From Archangiaceae bacterium (GTDB lineage Bacteria; Myxococcota; Myxococcia; Myxococcales; Myxococcaceae), in the NCBI GenBank assembly GCA_043750125.1, contig JAYVCD010000298.1, positions 1 to 29,284 of the forward strand: a DNA stretch of 29,284 bases, written 5' to 3'. The notes below the pieces were generated by a model. The model searched no databases and had not been told where the DNA came from. It was given only the letters and a program-made list of their open reading frames with translations. A program made the translations under genes and the position numbers. Positions 1-2,533 of the stretch are shown here, piece by piece; within the stretch, counting starts at the first letter, position 1; every line of letters begins with the position of its first letter.

Positions 1-96
1 AACGAAAGCCGTGTGCGGGAAATCCGCATGCACGGTTTGACTGGAGGTGGGGGAACCCGGATCGCGTGAGCGAAACCGGCGCCCCCATCCACCTAT
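1..96 (+). mobile_element. Group II intron, 3' terminal part (domain 5 + domain 6); the rest lies upstream of the window
   Basis: D5 at ~6-38: AAGCCGTGT GCGG GAAA TCCGC AT GCACGGTTT, with AGC catalytic triad, GAAA loop, AY bulge and a fully paired basal stem. A D6-like hairpin follows (GGAGGTGGGGG 43-53 pairing with CCCCCATCC-A-CC 82-93, candidate bulged A91) and ends in ...CCTAT, matching the AY terminus. Exact 3' boundary uncertain by 1-2 nt. Confidence 0.9.
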
Positions 97-2533
97 GAAA
101 ACTTCCGTTCGGCTGATGTGGCTCACTGGCATCGCCGCACTCGTCGGGTGCAACCCCAGCGTGATCGGCGCTCCGTGCGTGACCGAGGCGAACTGTCCCA
201 CCGGCCAGATTTGCGTGGCGGGGTTCTGTGCGTTGGGCACGGGAGGAAGCGGGGGAGGATCCGACGGCGGTTCCGGCGGAGGCAACGATGGGGGCGCGGG
301 CGGTGGGAATTCCCGGGTCGAAGGGCCGGGTTCGTCCTGCTCTGATGGGTTGGACAATGACTCGGACGGGCTGATCGACTGCAAAGACAGCGACTGCGCG
401 ACGAAGATCTGCCGCCCGGGTGTCGGCGGGTGCGACGTGGCCGAGGTGTGCACCAACGGAGAATGCCCGCCCGACGAAAAAGCCGCTCCCAACACGGTGT
501 GCCGTCCCGCGGTCGACGGGGGGTGTGACATCGCTGAGCTGTGTGATGGCACGAGTGGCGAGTGCGGGGCCGACGCGGTCGCGGCGACGGGCACCAGCTG
601 CCGGCCCGCGAAGGGTCTGTGCGACCTGGCTGAGTCCTGCAACGGTACGTCTGCCACCTGTCCTGCGGACGCATTTCACCCCGCCACCACGATGTGCCGC
701 GGCGCCTCAGGTGACTGTGACCTGGCCGATTTCTGCTCGGGCACTTCGGAAAATTGTCCGGACTCTTTGAAACCTTCGACCGCGGTGTGCCGTGCTTCTG
801 CGGGTGGCTGCGATCCCGAAGAGCTCTGCAGCGGCAGCTCGGTCGACTGCCCGGCCAACGTCATCTCGCGCCCCACCGTGGTGTGTCGCCCCGGCGCTGG
901 CCCCTGCGACTTCGCCGAGAACTGCGACGGTGTCCGGGTCGATTGTCCGGCCGATGGCTTCCTTGGCCAGGGCACCAGCTGTCGTCCTGCGGCCCCCGGT
1001 GGCTGCGATGTGGCCGAAGTGTGCAGCGGCACCAGCGCGGGCTGCCCGGTCGATGGGTTCTTGACCGGAACCGCGTGTCGCGCCAGCGCGGGAGCTTGCG
1101 ACATTTCCGAGCTGTGCTCCGGCAGCAGCGCGGCCTGTCCGGCCGACGTTTTTGCCGGCAGCTCGGTGGTGTGTCGCGCCTCGACCGGAGCGTGTGATGT
1201 CACCGAGAGATGCACCGGGGGCGCGACCTGTCCTGCAGACGTCTCGAGCTGCAACACGAGCCAGTATTGCGACGGCGCCAATGGCTGCGTCCTCAAGAAG
1301 CCGCTGAGCAGCGCCTGCACCGGCGCGGCCGAATGCAGCTCGGGATTCTGCGCAGGAGGCGTCTGCTGCAACTCGAGCTGCAATGGGGAATGCGAGGTCT
1401 GCTCGGTCCTGGGGGCCTGCAGCTTTCGGCCGCCGAACACCGTGTGCCGGTCTTCCGGCGGGGCGTGTGACCTGGCAGAGAGCTGCTCGGGTGCTTCCCC
1501 GACTTGCCCGATCAACCTCTTCGCCCCGTCCTCCGCGGTCTGCCGTTCGAGCGCGGGCTCCTGTGATGTCGCCGAGCAATGCACGGGCCTGGGGCCGGCG
1601 TGTCCCACCGACACCCTGCTGGGCGCTTCGACAACCTGTCGCACCAGCGCCGGCCTGTGTGACGTGGCTGAAGTGTGCTCGGGCTCCTCAGCCAGCTGCC
1701 CCAGCGACGTGGGCAGCCCGCCCGGAACGGTCTGTCGGGTCTCGGCGGGCTCTTGCGATGTCCCGGAGGCTTGCGTTGCGAACAACCCCAACTGTCCGAA
1801 CGATGGTTTCCAGGCGGCGAGCACTCCGTGCGGCCTGCCCAGCTGCAACAACGGCTCGTTTACTCCCGGGCCGGCGTGCGTGGGCAGCTCGAACACCTGC
1901 CAGATGTTCACCACCTCGAGCTGCAATGGTTTTCAGTGCAATCCGATGGGGACGGCGTGCCTGAACACCTGCGTCGCCAATACCGACTGTCTCTCGACCC
2001 ACTTCTGCCAGGGCAACGGCTGCGTCCCCAAGCTGGCGGACGGGGCCAACTGCATGAACAGTGGTGACTGCGTCAGTGGCAGCTGCCTGCAGGGGTTTGC
2101 TGATACCGACAACGACGGCTTTGGCAATGCGGCCGCCCCGGCGAAGTTCTGTGGCGCGCTTCCAATCTCGCCGGTGAAGTACGTCGCGAACGCCACCGAC
2201 TGCTGCGACACGGACGTCGATGTGCGGCCCAATCAGACCGTGTTCTTTGCGACTCCGGTGCCGGGGGCCTGCTCGAGCCGAGGCTTCGACTACAACTGCA
2301 GTGGCATTACCGAGCATCAGTTCGGGGTCAACGGCTGTGGGGGCGGCACTTGCAGCCCGACGATCGTCTCGTGCACATCTACCTCGGGGTGGAGCACGAG
2401 CAGCCCCCCCGGCTGCGGAGTCACCGGCTCGCTGCGGACCTGTTTCTTCGGAAATTTCGTCTGCGGCGGAGGCGAGCTGATCAACGGCTGCAACGGGGTG
2501 ATGACCAACGCCACCGTCGACAAGTGCCGCTGA
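95..2533 (+). CDS. Cys-rich surface lipoprotein with 13 disintegrin-like repeats and Asp-rich putative metal-binding motifs (812 aa)
   Basis: ATG95 gives the signal peptide MKTSVRLMWLTGIAALVG-C (lipobox). Then a Gly-rich linker, a CSDGLDNDSDGLIDCKDSDC motif, repeats CRxxxGxCDxxExCxGxSxxCPxD, and a C-terminal DTDNDGFGN...DCCDTD motif. The track's GTG47 start lies inside the intron. Confidence 0.88.
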   Translation: MKTSVRLMWLTGIAALVGCNPSVIGAPCVTEANCPTGQICVAGFCALGTGGSGGGSDGGSGGGNDGGAGGGNSRVEGPGSSCSDGLDNDSDGLIDCKDSDCATKICRPGVGGCDVAEVCTNGECPPDEKAAPNTVCRPAVDGGCDIAELCDGTSGECGADAVAATGTSCRPAKGLCDLAESCNGTSATCPADAFHPATTMCRGASGDCDLADFCSGTSENCPDSLKPSTAVCRASAGGCDPEELCSGSSVDCPANVISRPTVVCRPGAGPCDFAENCDGVRVDCPADGFLGQGTSCRPAAPGGCDVAEVCSGTSAGCPVDGFLTGTACRASAGACDISELCSGSSAACPADVFAGSSVVCRASTGACDVTERCTGGATCPADVSSCNTSQYCDGANGCVLKKPLSSACTGAAECSSGFCAGGVCCNSSCNGECEVCSVLGACSFRPPNTVCRSSGGACDLAESCSGASPTCPINLFAPSSAVCRSSAGSCDVAEQCTGLGPACPTDTLLGASTTCRTSAGLCDVAEVCSGSSASCPSDVGSPPGTVCRVSAGSCDVPEACVANNPNCPNDGFQAASTPCGLPSCNNGSFTPGPACVGSSNTCQMFTTSSCNGFQCNPMGTACLNTCVANTDCLSTHFCQGNGCVPKLADGANCMNSGDCVSGSCLQGFADTDNDGFGNAAAPAKFCGALPISPVKYVANATDCCDTDVDVRPNQTVFFATPVPGACSSRGFDYNCSGITEHQFGVNGCGGGTCSPTIVSCTSTSGWSTSSPPGCGVTGSLRTCFFGNFVCGGGELINGCNGVMTNATVDKCR
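410..1804 (+). repeat. 13 degenerate ~33-aa disintegrin-like coding repeats (9 + spacer domain + 4)
   Basis: Counted in the translation, e.g. CRPAKGLCDLAESCNGTSATCPAD and CRSSAGSCDVAEQCTGLGPACPTD. Confidence 0.9.

What the first reader, a model, noticed from the sequence alone, without database searches (positions are those of the whole stretch)
1..150. Group II intron 3' splice site coincides with the start codon of a large surface lipoprotein gene
Seen: a canonical D5 and a D6 ending ...CCACCTAT at 96. The final AT plus G97 form the ATG of MKTSVR…LVGC. No Shine-Dalgarno lies near this ATG; the bases before it (CCCCCATCCACCT) are paired in D6, and the only GGAGGT (43-48) is buried in that stem. 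Inference: splicing would remove the AT and join an upstream exon to G-AAA-ACT. Expression of the lipoprotein could therefore be splicing-dependent, or it could be an exon fused to an upstream ORF. Known precedent: an ORF-less group II intron in Clostridium tetani uses alternative D5/D6 copies to splice one 5' exon to several surface-layer protein 3' exons. A domesticated intron or stand-alone D5/D6 cassette controlling myxobacterial surface proteins would be new as far as I know. A simple recent insertion at the start codon is the alternative.
Basis: partly seen in the sequence, partly recalled or inferred. Interest (0 to 1): 0.85.

Follow-up and report, generated by a model that had tools for sequence, protein, structure and literature searches.

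The report
Intron family that homes to leaderless start codons
The start of this window is the tail of a mobile self-splicing intron from a family, found in many bacterial phyla, that inserts exactly after the start codon of genes that appear to lack a leader sequence, usually shares its reading frame with that codon, and ends in a replacement ATG.

Summary
Window 1-97 is a real group II intron 3' end: D5, D6 and the branch-point A at 91. It is not a stand-alone or domesticated cassette. The contig simply breaks inside a multi-copy intron that encodes a reverse transcriptase (RT); the own genome has at least 8 copies. The ATG coincidence is systematic. At all 82 5' junctions examined, in Myxococcales and about ten other phyla, the 5' exon ends in ATG (77) or GTG (5) directly before GUGCG. 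The intron's EBS1 loop covaries with those bases. Of 77 unique 5' exons, 68 carry a TANNNT -10-type box 5-9 nt upstream, against 4-6% of gene starts in this genome. This is the geometry of leaderless mRNAs. The intron ends in its own AUG. In most copies one reading frame runs from the host start codon through the ribozyme into the RT. Empty sites in relatives confirm exact insertion after the ATG. No transcript data exist, so leaderless transcription, translation of the RT from the host AUG and use of the terminal AUG are inferences. I found no paper describing this. The nearest published case, IIB1 introns at start or stop codons, differs in defining features. This scan had already noted the same habit on other DNA.

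The parts
1..97 (+). 3' terminal 97 nt of a multi-copy group II intron; the rest is lost at the contig end
   Evidence: Window base 1 is base 1 of contig C298. The same 95-99 nt occur at 7 other places in the own genome, 6 of them at contig ends. Copy C167 continues 1,147 nt further upstream into the RT ORF.
1..69 (+). Last 22 codons and the TGA stop (67-69) of the intron-encoded RT/maturase ORF, which runs through D5 into the D6 loop
   Evidence: Frame read from the C167 copy. In relatives the stop sits in the apical loop of D6 as UGA, UAA or UAG.
6..38 (+). Domain V (catalytic hairpin with AGC triad and 2-nt bulge)
   Evidence: RF00029 alignment; minimum-free-energy and consensus folds.
43..93 (+). 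Domain VI; 5' strand GGAGG(43-47), 3' strand CCACC(89-93); branch-point A91 opposite A45
   Evidence: Consensus fold of 31 D5-D6 sequences. The A is 7 nt from the last intron base.
95..97 (+). Intron-borne terminal AUG, the last 3 nt of the intron; the 3' splice site is after G97; it serves as the gene's start codon in the unspliced DNA
   Evidence: All 8 own-genome copies end CCACCTATG. In one search, 47 of 50 3' junctions in relatives end ATG, 2 end GTG and 1 is degenerate. An empty site shows a single ATG.
98..2533 (+). 3' exon: codon 2 to the stop of an 812-aa lipoprotein with 8 disintegrin-type repeats (CDS as it stands is 95-2533)
   Evidence: ORF list. Pfam PF00200 Disintegrin, 8 stretches, E 3.8e-51. 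Signal peptide MKTSVRLMWLTGIAALVGC. The closest same-genus homologue starts at the equivalent ATG without an intron.

Best explanation
SHOWN. Window 1-97 is the D5-D6 end of an ordinary-looking mobile group II intron. It is about 2.0 kb long and encodes an RT plus maturase with no endonuclease domain. Its other parts were lost because the assembly broke on a repeat. The intron belongs to a lineage found in Myxococcales and in metagenome-assembled genomes (MAGs) labelled as about ten other phyla. Members sit immediately after the start codon of a gene. The last four bases of the 5' exon (N-A/G-T-G) are IBS1 and pair with a CAUN loop (EBS1) in domain I. That loop changes to CACG where the exon ends CGTG, and to CAUU or CAUA where it ends A/G/T-ATG. 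The intron itself ends in AUG, so the DNA keeps an ATG directly in front of codon 2. In most copies a single open frame runs from the host start codon through ribozyme domains I-III into the RT. It stops in the D6 loop about 25-30 nt before the terminal AUG. INFERRED. The targets are leaderless or near-leaderless genes, because a TANNNT -10-type box lies 5-9 nt (mode 6) upstream of the start codon and SD motifs are rare there. If so, the RNA 5' exon is little more than pppAUG. Ribosomes that load on that 5'-terminal AUG would then read straight into the intron and make the RT; an internal SD plus ATG/TTG in domain IVa is an alternative start. Splicing would restore AUG plus codon 2. The intron-borne terminal AUG may let the host protein be made from unspliced RNA, for example by re-initiation after the D6-loop stop. 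How the intron RNA-protein particle (RNP) tells a leaderless start from any other NATG is unknown; four base pairs cannot do it.
For: Repeat and contig break. There are eight 3' junctions and four 5' junctions at contig ends, and further members on C3, C90 and C46. Intron identity: RF00029; RF02003 domain I at intron nt ~71-221, 84-91 bits; TIGR04416 at 401 bits, plus RVT_1 and GIIM. Start-codon position: 45 of 45 5' junctions in Myxococcales and the own genome are ATG (41) or GTG (4), found with a pattern anchored on the intron only. A further 35 of 35 new junctions in other taxa are ATG (34) or GTG (1), and C3 and C90 add two more. Empty sites: the GST gene of G186 is uninterrupted (...TAGGRT-6nt-ATG-CTCAAGG) in 5 related genomes. 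Coding frame after the terminal ATG: it has the highest GC3 in 42 of 47 junctions, and the ORF is open for at least 74 codons or to the end of the data in 45 of 47. EBS1 covariation: 65 of 65 junctions pair at the first start-codon base and 64 of 65 at -4; shuffles give mean 44, maximum 53 (structure). -10 box: 68 of 77 unique 5' exons (34 of 42 and 33 of 33 in the two sets), with a G two nt upstream in 62%. Background in the own genome is 0.59% of all ATG and 3.8-6.1% of 4,035 coding ORF starts. SD-like motifs occur in 5 of 77 exons, against 16-39% of candidate gene starts. Frame: 0 stops in frame 0 over domains I-III in 33 of 34 copies. Distinct stop columns number 0, 35 and 29 in frames 0, 1 and 2, and the distance to the internal start takes 10 values, a multiple of 3 in 29 of 30. 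Branch A at -7 from the terminal G. TANNNT as the -10 motif of high-GC bacteria, and the AUG preference of leaderless genes: passages of PMC8780764.
Against: There are no transcript data of any kind. No RNA run is listed for this stretch, so the transcription start, splicing and translation are all untested. Frame continuity is not universal. In the cross-phylum set, 10 of 35 copies have stops in frame 0 within the first 185 codons. In 7 of those the RT frame overlaps the open part of frame 0, so a single +/-1 indel or a MAG error is possible. [quoted passage not shown] That second set was found with a protein query that included the domain I-III translation, which may favour open frames. No -35-type TTG is enriched (4 of 68). 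Nine of 77 exons lack an exact TANNNT; in the first set 6 of the 8 without one are near-misses by my reading. Two of 47 3' junctions are not followed by a long ORF: C427 has 5 codons and L085 has 34. The window gene's own 5' exon was not found in this MAG. Its closest homologue has TATGGA, not TANNNT, plus a GGAG that could be an SD. 5' ends were not located in 6 Myxococcales loci and 12 cross-phylum loci, because of truncation or divergence. Most sequences are MAG contigs, although complete or near-complete genomes (G186, G062, G076) show the same pattern.
Confidence: 0.75

Rival explanations
1. One reading: a domesticated intron or stand-alone D5/D6 cassette, possibly several alternative 3' cassettes as in C. 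tetani, that makes expression of surface lipoproteins depend on splicing to a shared upstream exon or ORF.
For: Eight near-identical D5/D6 ends in one genome each precede a different ORF, four of them lipoproteins. In this MAG only four matching 5' ends were assembled.
Against: The excess of 3' ends is an assembly and binning effect. C167 continues into an intact RT ORF. In complete genomes each D5/D6 belongs to its own 2.0-kb intron with its own 5' exon and promoter-like box: 3 copies in G186 and 2 in G062. 5' exons end in a start codon preceded by non-coding, promoter-like sequence, not by an ORF. Host genes are functionally diverse.
Confidence: 0.02
2. No special targeting: the intron inserts at any NATG (4-bp IBS1). 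Only insertions behind leaderless start codons survive, because only there is the RT expressed and the host gene not destroyed. This is selection, not mechanism.
For: RNA pairing covers only 4 nt. The RT frame depends on an upstream start codon in most copies. No hairpin or other obvious second motif lies in the 5' exon apart from the -10 box.
Against: Dead or decaying copies (L053, L098, L100, ORF-less and mini derivatives) are still at start codons. None of 82 junctions lies inside a gene body, although one in-frame site in three would also give RT translation. Among 47 3' junctions only 2 lack a long ORF. Purging alone would have to be very fast and complete.
Confidence: 0.12
3. The TANNNT box is a DNA motif read by the intron protein or RNA as part of the homing site. 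It is not evidence that the genes are leaderless; the genes may have ordinary leaders from promoters further upstream.
For: No TSS data exist. No -35 element is enriched. The motif is nearly universal (33 of 33 in the cross-phylum set), as expected for a recognition element.
Against: Spacing to the insertion site varies from 5 to 9 nt within identical intron copies (6 or 7 nt in the three G186 sites). That fits promoter-to-TSS geometry, not base pairing or a rigid protein contact. The box is present and conserved in empty sites of genomes without the intron. SD motifs are at or below the random level (5 of 77). AUG dominates over GUG (77 to 5), as reported for leaderless genes (PMC8780764 passages).
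Confidence: 0.1
4. The open frame from the host ATG through domains I-III is not used to make the RT. It exists to keep ribosomes moving through the intron, avoiding Rho-dependent polarity or early termination, and to deliver them near the terminal AUG. The RT starts at the internal SD plus ATG/TTG.
For: Seven of 7 ORF-less or deleted derivatives of at least 794 nt still keep frame 0 open to the D6 loop or beyond, although they encode no RT: L054, L060, L065, L103, L104, L105, L106. A conserved internal SD-like ATG/TTG exists. In lineages with a broken frame 0 the RT must start internally.
Against: A translating ribosome would unfold the ribozyme. Lineage-B ORF-less copies have no stop before the terminal AUG, and their length is not a multiple of 3, so re-initiation there is not set up. 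Nothing has been tested experimentally.
Confidence: 0.25

Closest known systems
Specialised IIB1 clade at initiation or termination codons (Avi.groEL, EcKTE56.groEL; Michel et al. 2007 as summarised in PMC12584367, whose introduction and passages I read; the 2007 paper itself was not seen)
   Same: A monophyletic bacterial group II lineage whose members sit within or next to start or stop codons of protein genes. How they find such sites is stated to be unknown.
   Different: [quoted passage not shown] Here the domain I motifs start about 71 nt into the intron and the RT has no En domain. IBS1 is only 4 nt, hosts are diverse non-conserved genes, and only start codons with a -10 box are used.
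Bacterial class C (IIC) introns, including IIC-attC (PMC12584367 introduction; PMC4424553 passages; PMC3001079 abstract only)
   Same: En-less RT; very short IBS1; target defined by a genomic context and not by a long sequence. Among solved structures the closest RTs are IIC (GsI-IIC, E 5.8e-53). IIC-attC introns also compensate the downstream gene, through outward promoters.
   Different: IIC introns insert after terminator or attC hairpins. Here 5' exons fold no better than their shuffles (-11.5 against -11.7 kcal/mol), and 1 of 77 has five or more T in the 12 nt before the start codon. Domains I-III here are about 558 nt, which by my recollection is longer than in IIC. The context is a promoter plus start codon, not a terminator.
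Organellar group II introns whose IEP is read in frame with the upstream exon (yeast mitochondrial aI1/aI2; as stated in PMC3073962, passage read)
   Same: The RT frame is continuous with the upstream exon, so translation would depend on the host gene's initiation signal.
   Different: PMC3073962 states that bacterial IEPs lie wholly within intron loops with their own ribosome-binding sites. Here the 'exon' part of the fusion is just the start codon. Proteolytic processing is unknown. An internal start is also conserved.
Clostridium tetani alternatively splicing ORF-less intron in a surface-layer gene
   Same: Group II D5/D6 units directly precede surface-protein ORFs.
   Different: Here each D5/D6 belongs to a separate full-length, RT-encoding mobile copy. 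There is no shared 5' exon and no restriction to surface proteins.

Membership tests
Group II intron (mobile, RT-encoding) | Domain V/VI fold with AGC triad and a bulged branch-point A 7-8 nt from the 3' end | tested here: met
   RF00029 at 42.5 bits in the window. Consensus fold with the A at -7.
Group II intron (mobile, RT-encoding) | 5' GUGYG start and conserved domain I | tested here: met
   GTGCG at all own-genome 5' junctions. RF02003 at 84-91 bits in full-length relatives. The own-genome middle part is not assembled.
Group II intron (mobile, RT-encoding) | Intron-encoded RT plus maturase (X) domain | tested here: met
   TIGR04416 at 401 bits; RVT_1 2.5e-33; GIIM 8.3e-16 on P0001. The own-genome C167 copy encodes the same ORF.
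Group II intron (mobile, RT-encoding) | EBS1-IBS1 pairing that covaries with the 5' exon | tested here: met
   Paired at 65 of 65 and 64 of 65 positions; five pair types.
Group II intron (mobile, RT-encoding) | Splicing and retrohoming activity | not testable with these tools
   No RNA data. Multiple identical copies at different sites in one genome imply recent mobility.
Specialised IIB1 start/stop-codon clade (Michel 2007) | Insertion within or next to an initiation or termination codon | tested here: met
   82 of 82 5' junctions lie directly after ATG or GTG. None was seen at a stop codon.
Specialised IIB1 start/stop-codon clade (Michel 2007) | [quoted passage not shown] | tested here: not met
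   Conserved domain I motifs begin at intron nt ~71. Domains I-III total 524-582 nt.
Specialised IIB1 start/stop-codon clade (Michel 2007) | CL1-lineage RT with a C-terminal endonuclease domain | tested here: not met
   No En or HNH match in Pfam or NCBIfam. The ORF ends about 55 residues after the GIIM domain, inside D5-D6. CL1 membership was not tested by phylogeny.
Bacterial class C (IIC) | Insertion downstream of a terminator or attC hairpin | tested here: not met
   5' exons fold no better than shuffles; 1 of 77 has five or more T in the 12 nt before the start codon.
Bacterial class C (IIC) | Short IBS1 (3-4 nt), no En domain | tested here: met
   4-nt covarying IBS1; no En domain. Presence or absence of EBS2 was not examined.
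Bacterial class C (IIC) | IEP falls in the class C clade of reference trees | not tested
   Only PDB similarity is available: IIC RTs score best (5.8e-53) but T.el4h scores 9e-46. No reference set of classed IEPs was at hand.
Leaderless genes (as the target class) | -10 element placed so that transcription starts at or within a few nt of the start codon; no SD | tested here: met
   TANNNT 5-9 nt upstream in 68 of 77 (mode 6 nt); SD-like motif in 5 of 77.
Leaderless genes (as the target class) | Mapped 5' end of the mRNA at the start codon | not testable with these tools
   No RNA runs hold the stretch.

The most novel reading that the evidence does not exclude
The intron RNP recognises a transcription-initiation complex and not a sequence. 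At leaderless promoters the RNA-polymerase open complex melts the DNA from the -10 box to about +3. This would expose the coding-strand ATG to a 4-nt, anticodon-like EBS1 (CAU), and the intron would reverse-splice at the downstream edge of the bubble. The element would then live as a translational parasite of leaderless mRNAs. It would take the 5'-terminal AUG for its own RT and hand the host an AUG of its own, so the gene is expressed with or without splicing. That would make it the first mobile element known to target promoter open complexes, and a bacterial counterpart of exon-fused organellar intron ORFs.
Probability: 0.15. Interest if true: 0.95.

Novelty: new variant of a known kind. Interest (0 to 1): 0.8.

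Why it matters
Reviews list three target strategies for bacterial group II introns: sequence-specific homing, terminator hairpins and attC sites (PMC4424553 passages). One further clade at start or stop codons has an unexplained mechanism (PMC12584367). This lineage would add a fourth, clearly defined strategy. Its signature is simple and testable: a -10 box, then 6-9 nt, then NATG, then the intron. Four base pairs cannot explain the specificity, so some part of the transcription or translation initiation machinery is probably being read. That makes a long-standing question directly testable: how do En-less introns with minimal pairing find their sites? The lineage also contradicts the general statement that bacterial intron proteins are free-standing within intron loops (PMC3073962). 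It has practical consequences too. Gene callers will annotate the intron's terminal ATG as the gene start and will-aa 'RT' proteins whose first 190 residues are translated ribozyme. Assemblies break at these sites, as happened here. The insertions also mark candidate leaderless genes in uncultured phyla.

Tried and rejected
1) Pairing the window with its own 5' exon failed. None of the four 5'-junction contigs matches the region upstream of the closest homologue (G317), and upstream synteny is not kept (the homologous neighbour lies on C316). 2) RNA evidence: no RNA holder is listed. 3) I laid DNA contigs from 4 runs on window 1-1500. They also break at the repeat, and no intron-free allele or bridging contig was seen. 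4) A -35 element: TTG at a 16-18 nt spacer in 4 of 68, not enriched. 5) IIC-type hairpin in 5' exons: none. 6) Hypothesis that the 3' terminal AUG is held by pairing with EBS1: rejected, because L078, L079 and L089 have EBS1 CACG but end in AAUG. 7) Hypothesis that the GGAGG of the D6 5' strand is a Shine-Dalgarno for the terminal AUG: left as speculation. It is 47 nt upstream in lineage A and about 12 nt upstream in lineage B (from sequences), but G-rich 5' strands are normal for D6 (Rfam consensus). 8) Assigning the intron to a named IEP class (A-F, CL, ML): not possible, because no classed reference set was available. 9) Literature: searches and term look-ups in PMC4424553, PMC3552965 and PMC8919778 found no description of start-codon/leaderless targeting or of bacterial exon-fused IEPs. 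Michel 2007 and Simon 2008 are not held, and supplementary tables were closed, so a mention there cannot be excluded. 10) Other contig-end repeat families are IS-like elements unrelated to the intron.
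Full report
WHAT IS AT THE COORDINATES. Window 1-97 matches the Rfam group II D5/D6 model (RF00029, window 4-93, 42.5 bits against a gathering score of 40). It folds as D5 (6-38) and D6 (43-93), followed by UAUG (94-97). The window is contig C298 of a 460-contig, 89%-complete MAG, and window base 1 is the contig's first base. 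The same 95-99 nt occur at seven other places in that genome. Six of these are at contig ends (C439, C427, C363, C362, C134, C2) and one is internal (C167). All eight copies end ...CCACCTATG and then diverge. C167 continues 1.15 kb upstream into an RT (YADD) plus maturase ORF that runs through D5 and stops in the D6 loop; the equivalent stop in the window is TGA at 67-69. Clustering of contig ends found the matching 5' junctions. C317, C318, C319 and C79 all end ...(A/G)ATG|GTGCGTCGTGAAGG.... So the window holds the tip of a multi-copy mobile intron on which the assembler broke. It is not a stand-alone cassette. Contigs from other samples break at the same place. The D6 part has about 24 times the depth of the gene (about 200 against 8.4).

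THE COINCIDENCE WITH THE START CODON IS A PROPERTY OF THE LINEAGE. A DNA search of the order found related introns in 77 of 363 genomes. I fetched 57 loci from 3 calls (17, 41, 42). A pattern anchored only on the intron's first bases gave 46 hits. One was spurious (L064 minus strand) and was dropped. All 45 real 5' junctions, four of them from the own genome, have ATG (41) or GTG (4) immediately before GUGCG. In six further loci the 5' end was truncated or too divergent to place. At the 3' side, 47 of 50 junctions in relatives end ATG, 2 end GTG and one is degenerate. One search gave 47 usable 3' junctions, after dropping 1 spurious hit and 3 with no downstream sequence. The frame set by the terminal ATG has the highest GC3 in 42 of them, and it is open for at least 74 codons or to the end of the data in 45. 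The exceptions are C427 (5 codons) and L085 (34 codons). Host genes are diverse: GST-like proteins, Ser/Thr kinases, zf-HC2 anti-sigma factors, antitoxins, NUDIX, GlpK, SDR, glyoxalase and lipoproteins. The window's own host gene is an 812-aa lipoprotein with eight disintegrin-type repeats.

EMPTY SITES. The GST gene that carries an intron in the complete genome G186 is uninterrupted in five related genomes. These read ...GAAGTAGG(G/A)TG(G/C/T)GCGCATGCTCAAGG... and so have one ATG where the filled site has two. The intron is therefore an exact insertion after the ATG. The window gene's closest homologue is in same-genus genome G317 (61% amino-acid identity from residue 1). It also starts without an intron, at ...GCCTTCAATG|AAGACC. 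The window gene's own 5' exon could not be found in this MAG.

BOUNDARIES AND RNA RECOGNITION. A consensus fold of domain I shows a hairpin loop at about intron nt 265-285 whose tetranucleotide is complementary to the last four bases of the 5' exon. There are 76 unique junctions, and the loop was located in 65 of them. The first base of the start codon is paired in 65 of 65 and position -4 in 64 of 65; label shuffles give mean 44 and maximum 53 of 2,000. The pair types are CATG-CAUG (46), GATG-CAUU (9), CGTG-CACG (5, from four genomes), AATG-CAUU (3), TATG-CAUA (1) and one mismatch. The start codon is thus IBS1, and intron variants exist that are tuned to GTG starts. In D6 the bulged A lies 7 nt from the terminal G. 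This places the 3' splice site after the intron's own AUG: window A91 is the branch point and G97 is the last intron base. The ligated product is the same in either register.

PROMOTER CONTEXT. Of 77 unique 5' exons with at least 63 nt of flank, 68 have TANNNT 5-9 nt before the start codon. In the Myxococcales and own-genome set the figure is 34 of 42. In the cross-phylum set it is 33 of 33, with spacings of 6, 7, 8 and 9 nt in 21, 5, 5 and 2 cases. A G lies two nt upstream of the hexamer in 62%. In the window's own genome the same criterion is met by 0.59% of 106,991 ATGs. It is met by 3.8% of 4,035 coding ORFs at the longest start, and by at most 6.1% when any of the first six candidate starts is allowed. 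SD-like motifs occur in 5 of 77 5' exons, against 16-39% at candidate gene starts and 9% at random ATGs. No -35 TTG is enriched (4 of 68), and the exons carry no hairpin. TANNNT is the -10 motif reported for high-GC Streptomyces, where leaderless genes strongly prefer AUG (passages of PMC8780764). A leaderless transcript has also been proposed for a Myxococcus gene (passage of PMC12754779). The box sits at variable spacing in front of identical intron copies (6, 7 and 7 nt in G186), and it is conserved in empty sites. I therefore read it as the genes' own promoter, with transcription starting at or just before the A of the ATG. This is an inference; no 5' ends have been mapped.

THE READING FRAME. 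Reading from the host start codon, frame 0 has no stop over the first 190 codons (domains I-III) in 33 of 34 Myxococcales copies. The exception is a 419-nt mini derivative. Frames 1 and 2 have 0-12 stops each. Across 31 aligned copies there are 0 distinct stop columns in frame 0, against 35 and 29 in the other frames. The distance from intron nt 1 to a conserved internal ATG/TTG takes ten values (524-582 nt). It is a multiple of 3 in 29 of 30 copies; the exception is a decayed copy. Seventeen full-length copies have a single frame-0 stop about 10 codons before the 3' end. L053, L098 and L100 are decayed. The 666-aa product (P0001) has RVT_1 at residues 294-507 and GIIM at 537-611. TIGR04416 covers residues 237-601. 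No endonuclease domain is present. Residues 1-190 are translated ribozyme. Seven of 7 ORF-less or deleted derivatives of at least 794 nt also keep frame 0 open to D6. So the selection may be for translation through the intron as such, and not only for RT synthesis. In the cross-phylum set the frame is open in 25 of 35 copies. In 7 of the 10 exceptions the RT frame overlaps the open part of frame 0, consistent with a single +/-1 indel. A conserved SD-like ATG/TTG in domain IVa could serve as a conventional start.

DISTRIBUTION. A protein-guided scan of one genome per species returned 80 loci. The in-group, at 53% identity or more, has 53 loci. It includes records titled Myxococcaceae, Anaeromyxobacteraceae, Sandaracinaceae, Polyangiaceae, Nannocystis, Acidobacteriota, Thermoanaerobaculia, Planctomycetota, Brocadiaceae, Gemmatimonadota, Steroidobacteraceae, Rhodanobacteraceae, Ectothiorhodospiraceae, Aquabacterium, Spirochaetota, Eiseniibacteriota, Flavobacteriales and Acidimicrobiales. 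Nearly all are MAGs, so these labels depend on binning. A 5' junction was placed in 41 of the 53 loci. Six of those duplicate the first set, and the other 35 are reported above. The remaining 27 of the 80 loci are 38-48% identical. All but one, titled Nitrososphaerota, come from Bacillota-type records. I found no intron 5' end within 200 nt of the place where an ORF starting at the intron's 5' end would put it. The own genome also holds a second variant (C3 end), an ORF-less lineage-B copy (C90) and a 3' fragment (C46). The two 5' ends present (C3, C90) follow an ATG, and the two 3' ends present (C90, C46) end in ATG followed by an ORF.

COMPARISON WITH WHAT IS KNOWN. [quoted passage not shown] It has a 300-700 nt domain-I insertion and a CL1 RT with endonuclease, and its targeting mechanism is stated to be unknown (PMC12584367, introduction and passages). 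The present lineage lacks the insertion (RF02003 begins at nt ~71) and lacks the En domain. It uses 4-nt pairing and diverse hosts, so it is not a member of that clade. It resembles class C introns in its short IBS1, its En-less RT and its closest solved RTs, but it has no hairpin target. Its exon-fused frame resembles organellar introns, whereas bacterial IEPs are described as free-standing (PMC3073962 passage). Eight literature searches and three term look-ups found no description of this behaviour (63, 78, 79). Michel 2007, Simon 2008 and all supplements were not seen. This scan's earlier notes had already recorded the same habit for a related intron in another genome (e1-4911794). They also recorded a start-codon-homing ORF-less lineage with a 3' AUG (e1-2078247, e1-2078248). 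Those are unchecked AI notes and are not used as evidence.

VERDICT. What is there is one copy of a widespread intron lineage that homes to start codons of leaderless-type genes.

Noticed in passing
window 95-2533: The host gene encodes an 812-aa lipoprotein with eight Pfam Disintegrin (PF00200) repeats. It has paralogues on C376, C374, C11, C7 and C19, and expanded arrays in a relative (G349 has 34 DNA matches).
   Followed up: partly
own genome contig ends (e.g. C119, C208, C255 ... ; C110, C19, C207 ...): At least six other repeat families end contigs: groups of 13, 8, 6, 6, 5 and 5 contig ends, beginning for example TGATCCGGGCGGCTTGAAAGTGATCCACC or CTAG... They look like IS-element termini and explain much of the assembly's fragmentation.
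   Followed up: no
G000:C19:12354-12583: A 231-nt fragment of the intron's RT ORF, 91% identical, sits between two unrelated coding regions. It has no ribozyme parts and looks like a relic.
   Followed up: no
G000:C46:593-668: An unrelated group II D5/D6 (RF00029, 52.5 bits, the best hit in the genome) ends ...CCTACTCAC and is not at an ATG. A different intron family coexists in this genome.
   Followed up: no
L064 (G196), L109 (G325), L066 (G176): Mini derivatives of the intron (346, 419 and 131 nt) keep only the 5' end and D5/D6, still at ATG sites. They suggest repeated internal deletion.
   Followed up: partly
L155, L156, L160 (Steroidobacteraceae/Rhodanobacteraceae MAGs): Three species share a frame-0 stop at codon 44. 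In L155 and L156 the RT frame is open from codon 38; no YADD motif was found in L160, so its RT frame was not set. The break could be a fixed +/-1 shift or a programmed frameshift site in domain I.
   Followed up: partly
window 67-69 and the equivalent position in relatives: The RT stop codon always lies in the apical loop of the D6 extension but varies among UGA, UAA and UAG, as if the position and not the sequence is conserved.
   Followed up: partly
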